Positions 1,656 to 33,672 of a DNA stretch of 33,672 bases are shown piece by piece. This DNA is from a virus. The translations under genes were made by a program, and so were the position numbers. Within the stretch, counting starts at the first letter, position 1, and each line of letters starts with the position of its first letter. The stretch lies in the UHGV virus genome UHGV-2170543; one strand, given 5' to 3'. Below the pieces are notes generated by a model. The model was not told where the DNA came from, ran no database searches, and saw only the letters and a list, made by a program, of their open reading frames with translations.

Positions 1656-2129
1656 TTATTTCAGGCACTGAGTGCGGATATAGTCCTGTGCCCCTTCCAG
1701 TTGCTTGTGCATCGTCATCAGCCGCTCTCTGAGGGTGAAATAATCCCGTGTAACGGTGTCTGCCAGTTGGGGGCCGGTTGCATTATCCACGCCGGAGGTG
1801 GTGGGGGCTTCACGCACGGAGCCTGGACAGGTGGCGTTGATCCGCAGGCGCTTACGACCAGCGGCAACGTCAGCGCGAAGAGTTTCATTTTCAGCTCTCG
1901 CATCGGCTAATTCCCTCGAGTATTTTGCATCGAGCGCAGCAACATCGCGCTGGCGCACCTGCATATCAGTAATGGTTGCGTTCGCCAGCTTCAGTTCACT
2001 GGCTTTGTTATCGCGCTGCGCTTTGTAGGTAATCGCGTTATCACGGTAATGGTCTGTTGCCATCCACAGCGCACCACAGGCCACCAGCAGAATAACGATA
2101 AACGCGGAAAGCATTCGGTTTATGTTCAC
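1656..2129 (-). CDS. Rz: Rz i-spanin (lysis)
   Basis: 157 aa, N-terminal TM then coiled-coil rich in A/R/E, downstream of endolysin; Rz1 embedded in +1 frame. Confidence 0.8.
1718..1903 (-). CDS. Rz1: Rz1 o-spanin lipoprotein, embedded in Rz
   Basis: [16 protein letters not shown] lipobox followed by proline-rich [14 protein letters not shown], matching the lambda Rz1 pattern; fully nested in Rz in another frame. Confidence 0.75.
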
Positions 2130-2257
2130 CCCAGCAACCCCGACGAAGACAACATCATCCAGGCCATGGAAAGAAAAAGAGCAACCAGCATTAGTGAAAA
2201 TGAAATGCCGACAATTACACAGAGGATCTTCGCCAGCGTTATGAGTTTGTCTGACAT
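2126..2257 (-). CDS. small hydrophobic membrane protein between R and Rz
   Basis: [43 protein letters not shown]; GGGAGG RBS upstream of ATG at 2257. Confidence 0.3.
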
Positions 2258-2271
2258 GCTTAATCCTCCCT

Positions 2272-2418
2272 TCACGATTTCAACGCAATGACCAGTTTTG
2301 CCAGCCCATACAGCATCGGGGACACAGCAACACCGACCGCCACCCACTTAATGGCAAAAGCCAGTGCTCTGCTGATGTCATCAGTTACAGGCGCTTTCAG
2401 TTCAAGGCCATTTTTCAT
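2272..2418 (-). CDS. small hypothetical protein between R and Rz
   Basis: [48 protein letters not shown] with GAGG RBS; one hydrophobic segment. Confidence 0.3.
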
Positions 2419-2610
2419 AGTCAACCTCAACAGAATTCGTTTACACTTCGCCATGTTCTCCCTTGCCTTACTCAAGGTCAGAAACACAAAACCTCGCTTG
2501 GTGCCAACAAACGGGGTTTTTACTTTTATTCACTTACGTTTCGCCAGTTCGCAGGATTTCGTGTTATCCGCCCGCGTGGCCATTCCTCATTTTTCAGCAA
2601 AATATTCTGC

Positions 2611-3144
2611 TTATCTGTCGATACCCCAGCACGCCAGCGCGCTCTCCTGGTCACGACGGGATACCTGACCGTAACAGTTGTTTGAACGAATACGGCAGTC
2701 TCTGCCACCGTCCTTAATCCACCAGCGAATCGCTTCGCAGGCACCTTTTCGATCACCAGCATTAATTCGTCTGTAAAACGTCGACGGGAAACACTTACCG
2801 GGACCAATGTTGTACGGACAGAATGACGCGATCCCCGCTTTCTGGGGTTCGGTCAATGGCACTTTGATGTTTTTCTCCACCCATGCCAGCGCCTTATCAC
2901 GCTCAATGGCGTTAACCCGGTCGCATTTTTCCTTCGACAACTTCATGCCCGGAACGACAGGTTTGCCATCCACCAGGATGGCACCGCGGCAGATGGTCCA
3001 GATACCCGCGCCATCACGGTATGCCGTGGTGTGGTTACCTTCCTTTTCATCCAGAAACTGGTCGAGAATGTCAGGCGCAGGCGCACCAGCGGCAATCAGC
3101 GCCAGAACGGCAGCCGACAGGCCGTATTTGATTTTGGTGTTCAT
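2611..3144 (-). CDS. R: SAR-type endolysin (T4-lysozyme-like GH24 with N-terminal signal-anchor)
   Basis: N-terminal hydrophobic MNTKIKYGLSAAVLALIAAGAPA, then EGNHTTAYRDGAGIWTICRG catalytic E-D-T pattern similar to P22 gp19; lies between holin and Rz. Confidence 0.8.
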   Translation of the reverse strand: MNTKIKYGLSAAVLALIAAGAPAPDILDQFLDEKEGNHTTAYRDGAGIWTICRGAILVDGKPVVPGMKLSKEKCDRVNAIERDKALAWVEKNIKVPLTEPQKAGIASFCPYNIGPGKCFPSTFYRRINAGDRKGACEAIRWWIKDGGRDCRIRSNNCYGQVSRRDQESALACWGIDR

Positions 3145-3180
3145 GGATATATTAAATATTCAGCCGCTGTCCCTGGCCCA

Positions 3181-4061
3181 CTAAATACGCACTTTAAGAT
3201 AAGTCAGCCCCGGATGAAGCCAGTAAGCCGGCACTTTTTTAAAGGGTGGAGTATTAAAATCACGAAGAAGAGCCTCCCGCACAATTGCATCCTTATCAGC
3301 ACCACTGGCCAGCGCTTCAATCTCAGCGGCTACCTGAAGATATCCCATGCAACGGCCAACGCGCTTCATCAGCCCCTGCTTTTTATTGTTCTTCAGGTAA
3401 TCAATGGCAAATTCAATGAGCTCCTCACTGTGCTGGTGCGATGGAGGTGTTACTTTCCCATTTTCTGAGATGGTTATTTTCCCAGCATCACCGGATACAA
3501 CAAAGGATGGCCGGTTACACTCCCATTCCAGCTCACTGAAATTATCATTATGAATACTGAAACACTCTGCGAGATTTCTGCTCATCACTTTCCGACAATA
3601 ATCGTCAAACGCAGCAAACTGCTTTTCATCGCCAGAAGGCACCAATATCGACCATTTCTTATTCAGCTCAACGACGTAGCTCTCCAGTTTTTCAATACGT
3701 GATTCAACATCATCTTTTTCTGACCGCAGTGTTGACGGCGGCATCTTCAGAGAACAAGTAATTCTTCCCGGTAGCTTTCCTTTGTAGGTTATCAACACAT
3801 CCTGCGCCTCTAAAATTACGGGGCGCTTTTCCGNNNNNNNNNNNNNNNNNNNNNNNNNNNNTCCATGAAAAACTGCTTCGCCTGCTTTTTCGCCTCAGCT
3901 TCGTAAAACTCCAGCGTGGCACCTTCAGTACGGTCAAGACTAATCGCCACATTTGGCAACAACAGTGACGGATACCCACCAATTTCCAGTACCACAGTAA
4001 CAGTAATCTTATCCGGGTAATTATTTATCCCTTTAACAACCAGTTCGTATTTTTTCTTCAT
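3181..4061 (-). CDS. hypothetical late protein between S and R with a copy-specific about 180-aa C-terminal extension; interrupted by assembly gap
   Basis: N-terminal MKKKYELVVKGINNY... matches copy B gene 33208-33561; after the gap the frame continues ITYKGKLPGRITCSLKMPPSTLRSEKDD... to 3181, whereas copy B stops at ...SLKTPPESQP; frame across the N-run not verifiable. Confidence 0.4.
3834..3861. other. assembly gap (N run, 28 nt) inside S-R intergenic gene
   Basis: Run of n characters; length does not match copy B (about 38-39 nt expected). Confidence 1.
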
Positions 4062-4065
4062 CGCT

Positions 4066-32840: not shown

Positions 32841-32925
32841 AAAGTGAGCCAGCCAAATGGAAGGTATCGTTAAACTCACCGGTAGTGTCAGTGGGTCGTC
32901 TGAGATGCCTGCATGAGTTATCAGA

Positions 32926-32956
32926 GCCATCAGTACTTAACTGGTGGCTTTTTTTA
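32926..32956 (+). terminator. hairpin + U-tract between nanS-p and holin (copy B)
   Basis: GCCATCAG-TACTTAA-CTGGTGGC followed by TTTTTTT. Confidence 0.4.
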
Positions 32957-32990
32957 TTGTTGTCAGCTTCCGGATAACGGGAGACGGGGT

Positions 32991-33206
32991 ATGTACCAGA
33001 TGGAAAAAATCACAACAGGTGTGTCATACACCACGTCAGCGGTGGGAACGGGCTACTGGTTCCTGCAGTTGCTGGACAGGGTTTCCCCGTCTCAGTGGGC
33101 GGCAATAGGCGTGCTGGGGAGTCTGCTGTTTGGGCTGCTGACATATCTGACTAACCTGTATTTCAAAATCAGAGAGGACCGGCGTAAGGCGGCGCGGGGA
33201 GAGTAA
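32991..33206 (+). CDS. S: class II holin / pinholin (S21-like), copy B
   Basis: [71 protein letters not shown]. Confidence 0.8.
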
Positions 33207-33207
33207 A

Positions 33208-33561
33208 GTGATGAATAAAAAATATGAACTGGTTGTTAAGGGGATAAATAATTACGGGGATAAGGTTACTGTTACTGTGAAGCCGGAAGGTGACGGGCAA
33301 GCGTCGCTGTTGTTGCCAGATGTGGCGATTAGTCTTGACCGTACTGAAGGTGCCACGCTGGAGTTTTACGAAGCTGAGGCGAAAAAGCAGGCGAAGCAGT
33401 TTTTCATGGATGTTGCTGCCGGGTTATGTGAAGGGGATGGTCCGTTGCCGGAAAAGCGCCCCGTAATTTTAGAGGCGCAGGATGTGTTGATAACCTACAA
33501 AGGAAAGCTACCGGGAAGAATTACTGGTTCTCTGAAGACTCCACCGGAATCACAACCTTAA
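33208..33561 (+). CDS. hypothetical late protein between S and R, short form (copy B)
   Basis: 117 aa MMNKKYELVVKGINNYGDKVTVTV...ITYKGKLPGRITGSLKTPPESQP; paralog of N-terminal part of 3181-4061. Confidence 0.45.
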   Translation: MMNKKYELVVKGINNYGDKVTVTVKPEGDGQASLLLPDVAISLDRTEGATLEFYEAEAKKQAKQFFMDVAAGLCEGDGPLPEKRPVILEAQDVLITYKGKLPGRITGSLKTPPESQP

Positions 33562-33625
33562 TTCACTGACCGGAACAGATAAACCTGTCCGTGGGCAGAA
33601 ACCGATAAATCCTGATAAATATCCA

Positions 33626-33672
33626 TGAACGCAAAAATCAGATACGGCCTGTCGGCTGCCGTTCTGGCGCTG
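33626..33672 (+). CDS. R: SAR-type endolysin R, copy B, 5' fragment (runs off window)
   Basis: MNAKIRYGLSAAVLAL matches N-terminus of 2611-3144 product. Confidence 0.6.

What the first reader, a model, noticed from the sequence alone, without database searches (positions are those of the whole stretch)
1656..33672. Late module present twice in inverted orientation; assembly gaps fall inside the duplicated genes
The tRNA cluster, nanS-p, S, the S-R intergenic gene and R occur on the minus strand (1656-7660) and again on the plus strand (29762-33672), forming large inverted repeats flanking about 22 kb. Such repeats can mediate inversion by homologous recombination. All three N runs (3834-3861, 4208-4227, 26134-26218) lie within duplicated genes, and the N-run lengths do not match the paralog, which is what short-read collapse or scaffolding across repeats produces.
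Basis: seen in the sequence. Interest (0 to 1): 0.45.

Follow-up and report, generated by a model that had tools for sequence, protein, structure and literature searches.

The report
Two prophages' lysis modules, draft scaffold
The "inverted duplication" is two different lambda-like prophages each carrying its own version of the standard late/lysis gene cassette, placed back to back in a gapped short-read scaffold whose joins lie in shared repeats, so it is ordinary and the adjacency itself is doubtful.

Summary
A tRNA triplet, nanS-p, holin S, ydfR and the start of R lie on the minus strand (3097-7675) and again on the plus strand (29745-33672). The three N runs are where stated.

It is not a duplication. 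The arms share 85% nucleotide identity in patches. NanS-p is 57% identical at protein level, and the two Q antiterminators belong to unrelated Pfam families.

The window is built from three backbones:
- 1-~22600: a prophage of the type integrated at mlrA.
- ~22600-26133: a common prophage "nin" region (the stretch between the replication genes and Q).
- 26219-33672: a Qin-like Q/kinase/late region.

The joins fall in a 588-bp shared ead/Ea22-like gene and, at N run 3, in DUF968.

N runs 1 and 2 have the wrong length (28 N for 38 bases, 20 N for 23 bases). Each sits in the middle of the longest exact repeats between the two copies, which is classic short-read repeat collapse.

The first join is suspect. 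Its flanks are 100% identical to canonical prophages, the shared segment is a unique A/B/A/B allele mosaic, and none of 5,426 complete E. coli genomes has the junction. One metagenome contig shows the same topology.

Most likely this is an assembly chimera (about 0.7). Otherwise it is a real prophage-prophage recombinant. Interest is low.

The parts
1656..2129 (-). Rz spanin gene of prophage A. It has no counterpart in the right arm inside the window.
   Evidence: Pfam PF03245, E 1.9e-47.
2611..3144 (-). R lysozyme of prophage A.
   Evidence: Pfam PF00959. Positions 3097-3150 pair with 33672-33619 at 94%.
3181..4061 (-). Long form of ydfR (DUF1327 with a C-terminal extension), copy A. It is broken by N run 1 (3834-3861), where 28 N stand for 38 bases, so the reading frame is lost.
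   Evidence: Alignment to L001 and to the paralog. Intact 268-296-aa forms exist in complete genomes.
4066..4278 (-). Class II holin S, copy A, broken by N run 2 (4208-4227), where 20 N stand for 23 bases.
   Evidence: The ortholog is annotated in L001.
4957..6918 (-). nanS-p (sialate O-acetylesterase), copy A, 653 aa.
   Evidence: Pfam DUF1737 + SASA + DUF6645. The exact protein occurs in 772 blocks of the collection.
7127..7335 (-). STnc100 sRNA element downstream of the tRNAs, copy A.
   Evidence: Rfam RF02076, 131.7 bits.
7411..7660 (-). tRNA triplet of copy A, anticodons CAT / TCG (Arg) / TCT (Arg).
   Evidence: ARAGORN and Rfam.
9706..10092 (-). Q antiterminator of prophage A.
   Evidence: Pfam PF06530, E 1.5e-47.
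17551..18475 (.). The only immunity region in the window: cro (17551-17751, minus strand) and a LexA-like cI repressor (17849-18475, plus strand). All genes to the left read leftward and nearly all genes to the right read rightward.
   Evidence: Pfam P22_Cro, and HTH_3 + Peptidase_S24. ORF map. L001 annotation.
20323..22596 (+). Early-left operon of prophage A (yfdQ, yfdR, yfdS and two small genes). Positions 21300-22590 are 100% identical to canonical mlrA-site prophages.
   Evidence: 1291/1291 identical to L001, L012 and L015.
22593..23216 (+). The ead/Ea22-like gene, which is join 1. It contains the 588-bp segment shared by the A (early-left) and B (nin) contexts, and shows an A/B/A/B allele mosaic found nowhere else.
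   Evidence: Pfam PF13935. The exact protein is not on record.
23194..26133 (+). Nin-region segment of prophage B: a 118-aa gene, DUF7167, a 58-aa gene, a 104-aa gene, sok/hokD (24746-25070) and the DUF968 N-terminal part (from 25512).
   Evidence: Positions 23195-24010 are 816/816 identical to canonical B loci. Positions 24321-26133 are 99.6% identical to L003. sok is Rfam RF01794.
26134..26218 (.). N run 3 (85 N for 77-80 bases) inside DUF968, which is join 2. The best-matching backbone switches here from L003-like to L002-like.
   Evidence: No complete genome is above 96.6% across it. The metagenome contig L042 ends about 25 bases past window 26133, the last base before N run 3.
26929..27624 (+). 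Q antiterminator of the right-hand backbone. It belongs to a different family from the Q of prophage A.
   Evidence: Pfam PF06323, E 5.6e-84. No BLASTP similarity to Q_A.
29762..30011 (+). tRNA triplet of copy B. It differs from copy A at 1, 5 and 1 positions.
30087..30764 (+). Two tandem STnc100 elements (30087-30277 and 30555-30764). They explain the direct repeat D4 and the inverted repeat I9.
   Evidence: Rfam. Repeats.
30987..32840 (+). nanS-p copy B, 617 aa, 57% identical to copy A.
32991..33561 (+). Holin S (32991-33206) and short ydfR (33208-33561) of copy B. This copy is complete, and it contains the bases missing from copy A.
33625..33672 (+). The first 48 nt of R, copy B. The window ends here.
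   Evidence: 33619-33672 pairs with 3150-3097.

Best explanation
The window is a short-read scaffold of lambdoid prophage DNA assembled from three different prophage backbones.

**The backbones**
- Backbone A (1 to about 22600) is a prophage of the type that integrates next to mlrA. Its right operon (cro to Q_A, tRNAs, nanS-p, S, ydfR, R, Rz) reads leftward. Its early-left operon (cI, yfdPQRS, Ea22) reads rightward.
- Backbone B (about 22600-26133) is the 'nin' region (the stretch between the replication genes and Q) of a very common prophage: Ea22, DUF7167, hokD, DUF968.
- Backbone C (26219-33672) is a Qin-like stretch: DUF968 C-terminus, RusA, Q, Ser/Thr kinase, PP2C, tRNAs, nanS-p, S, ydfR, R.

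**Shown**
- The two 'late modules' are the standard cassette downstream of Q that such phages all carry. They are homologous but clearly different alleles, not a duplication.
- N runs 1 and 2 are scaffold gaps left where the two copies are exactly identical for about 180-200 bp, so reads could not be assigned to one copy.

**Inferred**
- The head-to-head adjacency is most likely an assembly chimera.
- The A-to-B join runs through a 588-bp gene present in both prophages. The sequence there alternates A, B, A, B alleles between SNP-free stretches of 95-140 bp. This is what bubble merging or mis-threading of a two-copy repeat gives.
- The B-to-C join is an N gap at a repeat boundary.
- If so, there is no invertible 22-kb segment in the real chromosome.
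For: **Backbone assignment**
- Window 3862-23189 is 99.1% identical to one prophage of strain 23CRST038. Window 26219-33550 is 98.8% identical to a different prophage about 1 Mb away in the same genome.
- Window 22594-26133 is 99-99.6% identical to a third type, represented by L003.

**The modules are different alleles**
- The Q proteins fall in different Pfam families.
- NanS-p is 57% and RusA 41% identical.
- The arms share 85% nucleotide identity.

**Gaps**
- The N counts are wrong.
- Gaps 1 and 2 are centred in the longest exact repeats.
- Two other draft assemblies gap at or within about 15 bases of the window's gap 1.

**Join 1**
- The left flank is 1291/1291 identical to canonical A. 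The right flank is 816/816 identical to canonical B. The 588 bp between them has 8-10 mismatches to each of the canonical A and B references, and at least 5 to every locus compared.
- The alleles there run in the pattern A, B, A, B.
- No complete E. coli genome of 5,426 spans the junction. Yet 1,979 of them carry the A-left segment and 82-85 carry the B arrangement.
- A junction pattern validated on the window has 0 hits in the genome, viral and metagenome collections. Both parental patterns are found, with 10 and 8 hits.

**Join 2**
- The best-matching backbone switches at the N run, and no complete genome exceeds 96.6% identity across it.
Against: - The join at Ea22 is inside a 21.9-kb gap-free stretch. 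The same assembler left N gaps at much shorter repeats, which suggests it was not reckless.
- One independent MEGAHIT metagenome contig (L042, 10.2 kb) shows the same topology: cro | cI, yfdPQRS, Ea22, hokD, DUF968.
- A collapsed mosaic would also arise if the genome held the two reciprocal products of a real exchange. The mosaic therefore shows only that two copies exist. It does not show which flanks are truly linked.
- Ea22 alleles are shuffled in nature.
- I could not obtain reads or the source assembly.
Confidence: 0.68

Rival explanations
1. The arrangement is real: a composite, head-to-head fused prophage made by homologous recombination between the Ea22-like gene in the early-left operon of prophage A and the oppositely placed Ea22-like gene in the nin region of prophage B.

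Three routes could produce it:
- Inversion of the chromosome segment between two prophages that lie in the same orientation.
- Single-crossover insertion of one circular phage genome into the resident prophage.
- Deletion between two head-to-head prophages.

The result is one cI/cro region flanked by two outward-reading Q-late modules.
For: - Each of these three routes predicts exactly the gene order seen (inference from the maps).
- The join lies in a gap-free contig.
- L042 shows the same order as far as DUF968.
- Prophage-prophage recombination giving inversions and inverted duplications is documented in E. coli O157:H7 (PMC8743559).
Against: - It is absent from all 5,426 complete genomes, although roughly 30 would be expected to carry both parents if carriage were independent (my own estimate from the counts).
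- The three allele switches in 588 bp, with perfectly canonical flanks, are not what a single crossover gives.
- L042 is itself a short-read metagenome contig that crosses a 1.4-kb block shared by both contexts.
- The link onward to the second late module passes through an N gap at another repeat.
Confidence: 0.27
2. It is a recent inverted segmental duplication of one late module within a single prophage, forming a true invertible element.
For: Only the shared gene order and a few arms at 94-98% identity.
Against: - Overall identity is 85% with large indels.
- NanS-p is 57% identical, and the Q proteins are unrelated.
- Each arm is 99% identical to a different widespread prophage.
Confidence: 0.02
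3. The N runs are deliberate masks or sequencing failures unrelated to repeats.
For: Some public collections mask stretches with N, according to the tool description.
Against: - A mask keeps the original length. Here 28 N replace 38 bases, 20 N replace 23 bases, and 85 N replace 77-80 bases.
- Gaps 1 and 2 are centred in exact repeats.
Confidence: 0.03

Closest known systems
Late-region cassette of Stx-type and related lambdoid prophages (Q, ileZ-argN-argO tRNAs, [stx], nanS-p, S, R, Rz), as reviewed in PMC8065619 and PMC10462455
   Same: Same gene order and domain content in both arms: the tRNA triplet, NanS-p with DUF1737 + SASA + DUF6645, P21-type holin, lysozyme and Rz.
   Different: - No stx genes. 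The tRNA-to-nanS-p intervals are only 490 and 975 bp.
- About 2 kb of accessory genes lies between Q and the tRNAs in each arm.
- A ydfR/DUF1327 gene lies between S and R.
Prophage integrated at mlrA (yehV) in E. coli 23CRST038 (NZ_AP045810.1, 3.005-3.032 Mb)
   Same: 99.1% identity over window 3862-23189, with the same gene order from the lysis genes to Ea22.
   Different: In the complete genome, Ea22 is followed by DUF551, xis, int and mlrA. In the window it is followed by hokD, DUF968, Q and a second late module.
Common lambdoid prophage with a nin region of Ea22, DUF7167, hokD, DUF968 (for example GN02050 NZ_CP095505.1; 82-85 complete genomes)
   Same: Window 22594-26133 is 99-100% identical.
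   Different: There the block lies downstream of that phage's own cro, replication genes, DUF4406 and DUF4752. It is followed by a PF03589-type antiterminator, not the PF06323 Q seen in the window.
Prophage-bounded large chromosomal rearrangements in E. coli O157:H7 (Fitzgerald et al. 2021, PMC8743559)
   Same: Homologous prophage sequences in inverted orientation as substrates for inversion or inverted duplication.
   Different: The documented boundaries are repeats of at least 5 kb at 98% identity or more, verified with long reads and PFGE. Here the best arm is 391 nt at 96%, and nothing has been verified.
Early-left operon of Stx phage ArgO145 (NC_049918.1)
   Same: It carries yfdQ-like, 67-aa and 79-aa genes, then Ea22, a 118-aa gene, DUF7167 and a 58-aa gene, all in the early-left operon. 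This shows that the Ea22 block can legitimately sit on the cI side.
   Different: In ArgO145 the operon continues to ParDE, an antirepressor, xis and int. It never reaches hokD, DUF968, Q or late genes.

Membership tests
Lambdoid Q-dependent late/lysis cassette | A Q-family antiterminator lies upstream, on the same strand. | tested here: met
   PF06530 at 9706-10092 (minus strand) and PF06323 at 26929-27624 (plus strand).
Lambdoid Q-dependent late/lysis cassette | Holin, endolysin and spanin genes occur in order. | tested here: met
   - Arm A has S, R and Rz.
- Arm B has S and only 48 nt of R before the window ends.
Stx-converting phage late region | stxA and stxB lie between the tRNAs and nanS-p. 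| tested here: not met
   The intervals are 490 bp (6919-7410) and 975 bp (30012-30986). The only ORF of at least 60 aa lying wholly within either interval is 87 aa with no Pfam hit, and STnc100 elements fill much of the space.
Recent inverted segmental duplication | The two arms are near-identical along their whole length. | tested here: not met
   85% identity with 2,383 gap columns. NanS-p is 57% identical at protein level.
Recent inverted segmental duplication | Both arms derive from one parental element. | tested here: not met
   Each arm is about 99% identical to a different prophage that lies at a different chromosomal site in complete genomes.
Recombination-competent invertible segment (prophage-bounded rearrangement) | Long inverted repeats of high identity, documented as at least 5 kb at 98% or more. 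| tested here: not met
   The best arm is 391 nt at 96%. The longest exact run is 95 nt as observed, and about 180-206 nt if the gaps are filled as in the paralog. The threshold is from PMC8743559.
Recombination-competent invertible segment (prophage-bounded rearrangement) | The two repeats lie on one molecule, and both orientations are seen in a population. | not testable with these tools
   No reads or source assembly are available. The junction is absent from all complete genomes searched.
Scaffold gap caused by repeat collapse | The N-run length differs from the true sequence length. | tested here: met
   28 N vs 38 bases and 20 N vs 23 bases. 85 N vs 77-80 bases.
Scaffold gap caused by repeat collapse | The gap lies inside an exact multi-copy repeat. 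| tested here: met
   - Gaps 1 and 2: exact identity to the other copy for 77-91 nt on each side. Two other draft assemblies gap at or within about 15 bases of gap 1.
- Gap 3: inconclusive. It lies at a backbone switch, and the contig L042 also ends there, but the in-window paralog is too diverged to be the cause.
Chimeric contig through a collapsed repeat | The join lies in a sequence shared by two loci, with flanks matching different loci. | tested here: met
   A 588-bp shared Ea22 segment. The left flank is 100% canonical A and the right flank 100% canonical B.
Chimeric contig through a collapsed repeat | The shared segment is a mixed consensus of both copies. | tested here: met
   An A/B/A/B pattern over 4 SNP clusters, not seen in 20 comparison loci or 120 protein clusters.
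Chimeric contig through a collapsed repeat | Read pairs or long reads contradict the join. | not testable with these tools
   No read data are available.

The most novel reading that the evidence does not exclude
The scaffold is correct. This strain then carries a fused, integrase-less composite prophage in which a single cI/cro switch sits between two outward-facing Q-late-lysis modules from different phages. Induction would fire two antiterminators and two lysis cassettes in opposite directions. The short inverted homologies (tRNAs, S-ydfR) could occasionally flip the 22-kb core and swap which Q drives which lysis cassette.
Probability: 0.22. Interest if true: 0.4.

Novelty: already known. 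Interest (0 to 1): 0.12.

Why it matters
The value is mainly as a caution. Multi-prophage E. coli drafts yield scaffolds that join different prophages at shared genes. An apparent 'inverted duplication' or 'invertible segment' read from such a scaffold should not be taken as chromosome structure.

If the join were real, it would be one more example of prophage-prophage recombination reshaping E. coli genomes. It would have an unusual topology, with one immunity region and two late modules. It would still not be a new kind of system.

Tried and rejected
**1. Tracing the source assembly.**
- The exact hybrid Ea22 protein is not on record.
- A lookup of the fragment ORF 3181-3798 found only related assemblies, not the source.

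**2. Junction pattern scans.**
- Searches were wasted, because I mistyped the number of N (549 instead of 565).
- The corrected pattern was validated on the window. It gave 0 hits in the genome, viral and metagenome collections.
- The reciprocal pattern also gave 0 hits in the viral collection.

**3. Hybrid Ea22 proteins.**
- I first took nine hybrid Ea22 proteins (A-type N-terminus, B-type C-terminus) and their eight contigs as independent proof of the junction.
- I rejected this. Phage ArgO145 shows that Ea22, the 118-aa gene, DUF7167 and the 58-aa gene are a normal early-left arrangement. Most of those contigs end inside that block.
- Only L042 reaches hokD and DUF968. L046 reaches DUF968 only across a 10-N gap.

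**4. Terminal motifs of Ea22 as context markers.** Rejected, because all four combinations of N-terminal and C-terminal type exist.

**5. Inferring the assembler's k-mer size from contig ends at 3833.** Rejected, because alignments to the window must stop at its own N run.

**6. N runs as masks.** Rejected on length.

**7. Other checks.**
- A PADLOC scan of accessory genes gave only kinase hits.
- The promoter and terminator scan of the immunity region was uninformative.
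Full report
**1. The observation**

The window has three N runs, at 3834-3861 (28), 4208-4227 (20) and 26134-26218 (85). ARAGORN finds two tRNA triplets with anticodons CAT, TCG and TCT, at 7411-7660 (minus strand) and 29762-30011 (plus strand).

The repeat finder reports nine inverted pairs. The best are 391 nt at 96% (tRNA region), 346 nt at 94% and 91 nt at 98% (S/ydfR), and 283 nt at 95% (start of nanS-p). Self-BLAST gives E = 0 for the main blocks.

Pfam confirms the gene names:
- NanS-p (DUF1737 + SASA + DUF6645) at 4957-6918 (minus) and 30987-32840 (plus).
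- P21-type holin and DUF1327/ydfR at 32991-33561.
- Lysozyme at 2611-3144.
- Rz at 1656-2129.

The homologous arms are 3097-7675 and 29745-33672. Rz and everything left of 3097 have no partner in the window. Only 48 nt of the second R gene are present.

**2. The two modules are not a duplication**

- A global alignment of the arms (4,579 vs 3,928 bp) gives 85% identity over aligned bases, 2,383 gap columns, and a longest observed exact run of 95 nt.
- NanS-p proteins are 57% identical and RusA proteins 41% identical.
- The two Q proteins show no BLASTP similarity. They belong to different Pfam families, PF06530 and PF06323.
- The tRNA alleles differ at 1, 5 and 1 positions.
- Arm A carries DUF826 and DUF1378 genes and a long ydfR that arm B lacks. 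Arm B carries two STnc100 elements where arm A has one.

**3. What the window is made of**

Comparison with complete E. coli genomes shows three backbones.
- Window 3862-23189 is 99.1% identical, in one alignment, to a prophage integrated next to mlrA in strain 23CRST038.
- Window 26219-33550 is 98.8% identical to a different, Qin-like prophage about 1 Mb away in the same genome.
- Window 22594-26133 is 99-99.6% identical to the nin region (the stretch between the replication genes and Q) of a third, common prophage type, for example in GN02050.

The window holds a single immunity region, with cro at 17551-17751 (minus) and a LexA-like cI at 17849-18475 (plus). Everything to the left reads leftward: cro, two Rha genes, a replication gene, Dam, RusA, KilA-N, DUF968, Q_A, the tRNAs and the lysis genes. 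Nearly everything to the right reads rightward: cI, yfdPQRS, Ea22, hokD, DUF968, RusA, Q, kinase/PP2C, the tRNAs and the lysis genes.

In the complete genome, the early-left operon of backbone A ends in DUF551, xis, int and mlrA. In the window it runs instead into another phage's nin and late genes.

**4. The N runs**

- Aligned to the 99%-identical ortholog, N run 1 (28 N) replaces 38 bases and N run 2 (20 N) replaces 23 bases. The in-window paralog gives the same fillers of 38 and 23 bases.
- N run 3 (85 N) replaces 77-80 bases.
- The N runs are therefore estimated scaffold gaps, not masks.
- On each side of gaps 1 and 2, copy A is exactly identical to copy B for 77-91 nt. The gaps sit in the centre of what would be 178-bp and 206-bp exact repeats, the longest between the two copies.
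- Two unrelated draft assemblies gap at or within about 15 bases of the window's gap 1. L032 (GCA_006238105.1) has several 10-N gaps across S-ydfR. L033 (GCA_000782635.1) has one 100-N gap there.
- The wrong N count breaks the frame of a long ydfR gene. That gene is intact, at 268-296 aa, in complete genomes.
- Gap 3 is different. The in-window DUF968 paralog is only 46-78% identical. The gap coincides with a switch of best-matching backbone. An independent contig, L042, ends about 25 bases past window 26133, the last base before the gap. It probably marks a repeat shared with a prophage outside the window.

**5. The A-to-B join**

Backbones A and B share a 588-bp stretch of an ead/Ea22-like gene (22602-23189). 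In A this gene lies in the early-left operon. In B it lies in the nin region, so it has the opposite orientation relative to the phage map.

- Left of the shared stretch, the window is 1291/1291 identical to canonical A prophages. Right of it, the window is 816/816 identical to canonical B prophages. Within it, the window has 8-10 mismatches to each of the canonical A and B references, and at least 5 to every locus compared.
- Site by site the alleles run A (22593-22601), B (22742-22805), A (22913-22982), B (23078 onward). The switches fall across SNP-free stretches of 140, 107 and 95 bp.
- No complete genome of 5,426 spans the junction. Yet 1,979 carry the A-left segment and 82-85 carry the B arrangement. 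If carriage were independent, roughly 30 would carry both; that figure is my own estimate.
- A junction pattern that matches the window has no hit in the species-representative genomes, IMG/VR or JGI metagenomes. The two parental patterns have 10 and 8 IMG/VR hits, each in its expected context.

**6. A lead that mostly dissolved**

A protein search found nine Ea22 variants with an A-type N-terminus and a B-type C-terminus. Their contigs show A-left genes followed by Ea22, a 118-aa gene and DUF7167. This looked like independent proof of the junction.

However, Stx phage ArgO145 carries that same block in a normal early-left operon that continues to xis and int. The end motifs also occur in all four combinations. 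Six of the eight contigs end inside the block. L046 follows the ArgO145 order and reaches DUF968 only across a 10-N gap.

Only L042, a 10.2-kb MEGAHIT metagenome contig, runs from cro | cI through yfdPQRS and Ea22 to hokD and DUF968. This is one independent instance of the topology. It too is a short-read contig that crosses a shared block of about 1.4 kb.

**7. Interpretation**

Shown:
- The modules come from two different prophages.
- N runs 1 and 2 lie within exact repeats between the two copies.
- The joins lie in shared genes.

Inferred: the adjacency is probably an assembly artefact.

The A/B/A/B mosaic between perfectly canonical flanks is what bubble merging or mis-threading of a two-copy repeat produces. 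A single crossover would give one switch. The mosaic proves only that both alleles are present in the genome. The prior from complete genomes, which show canonical separate prophages and never this junction, then favours a chimera.

Three points count against this:
- The join is in a gap-free 21.9-kb stretch.
- The assembler was cautious at shorter repeats.
- L042 exists.

I put about 0.7 on a chimera and about 0.25 on a real composite prophage. A real composite could arise by inversion between the oppositely oriented Ea22 copies of two co-oriented prophages, by single-crossover insertion of one phage genome into the other prophage, or by deletion between head-to-head prophages. Each route reproduces the observed order.

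**8. Inversion potential**

Documented prophage-bounded rearrangements in E. coli O157:H7 use repeats of at least 5 kb at 98% identity or more (PMC8743559). Here the substrates are a few hundred bases at 94-98% identity, with exact runs of at most about 200 bp. Even if the structure is real, inversion would be rare. It would only exchange which Q faces which lysis cassette.

**9. Verdict**

These are ordinary lambdoid late cassettes in a gapped draft scaffold. The 'duplication' is two prophages. The invertible architecture is unverified and more likely an artefact.

Noticed in passing
window 3181-4061 (-): The gene between S and R in copy A is a long form of ydfR: DUF1327 plus a C-terminal extension of about 180 aa with no Pfam match. 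The same form is intact at 268-296 aa in several complete genomes. Here its frame is broken only by the mis-sized N run.
   Followed up: partly
window 7127-7335 (-), 30087-30277 (+), 30555-30764 (+): Rfam STnc100 sRNA elements lie just downstream of each tRNA triplet, one in arm A and two in tandem in arm B. They account for direct repeat D4 and inverted repeat I9. A borderline AsxR (anti-Stx2 sRNA) match lies antisense at 7071-7123, scoring exactly at the gathering threshold.
   Followed up: no
window 14867-16584 (-): Two tandem Rha-family regulator genes form the direct repeats D1-D3 (75-92% identity). Each copy carries a C4 antisense RNA match (15479-15566, 16345-16432) and an isrK match (15591-15667, 16454-16530). 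This suggests duplicated P1-type antirepressor control units.
   Followed up: no
window 27696-29275 (+): A Ser/Thr protein kinase and a PP2C phosphatase lie between Q and the tRNAs of the right arm. The kinase hits PADLOC defence models (mad6 at 1.7e-40, PD-T4-6, Stk2). It is a candidate prophage-encoded phage-exclusion pair.
   Followed up: partly
window 24746-25070 (+): A sok antisense RNA (Rfam, 106.7 bits) together with a hokD-type toxin gene lies in the nin-region segment.
   Followed up: no
window 7585-7660 (-) and 29762-29837 (+): ARAGORN calls the CAT-anticodon tRNA Met. RefSeq annotates the orthologs as tRNA-Ile in two genomes and tRNA-Met in a third. It is probably the ileZ-type tRNA-Ile2 of Stx-like phages. 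The Arg(TCG) copies differ at 5 positions, most of them in the T arm.
   Followed up: no
window 7689-9657 (-): About 2 kb of accessory genes separates Q_A from the tRNAs. It holds an AraC-type HTH protein (7689-8402), a small ORF, and a protein annotated as WYL-domain in RefSeq that has no Pfam or PADLOC hit here (9013-9657).
   Followed up: no
window 1 and 33672 (both ends): The window starts about 60 nt inside the terminase small-subunit gene and ends 48 nt inside R. Both are conserved multi-copy prophage genes. The 33,672-bp window may therefore be an entire scaffold that stops at repeats on both sides.
   Followed up: no
window 24265-24321: Relative to L003 and L042, the window lacks about 150 bp in the gene after the 58-aa ORF, giving 104 aa instead of 171 aa. 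The 104-aa allele is itself very common, occurring in 6,225 blocks of the collection, so it is a natural variant and not an assembly defect.
   Followed up: yes
window 29386-29712 (+): A truncated N6/N4 DNA methyltransferase fragment (C-terminal part only) lies just upstream of the right-arm tRNAs. The matching complete genome annotates it as a pseudogene.
   Followed up: no
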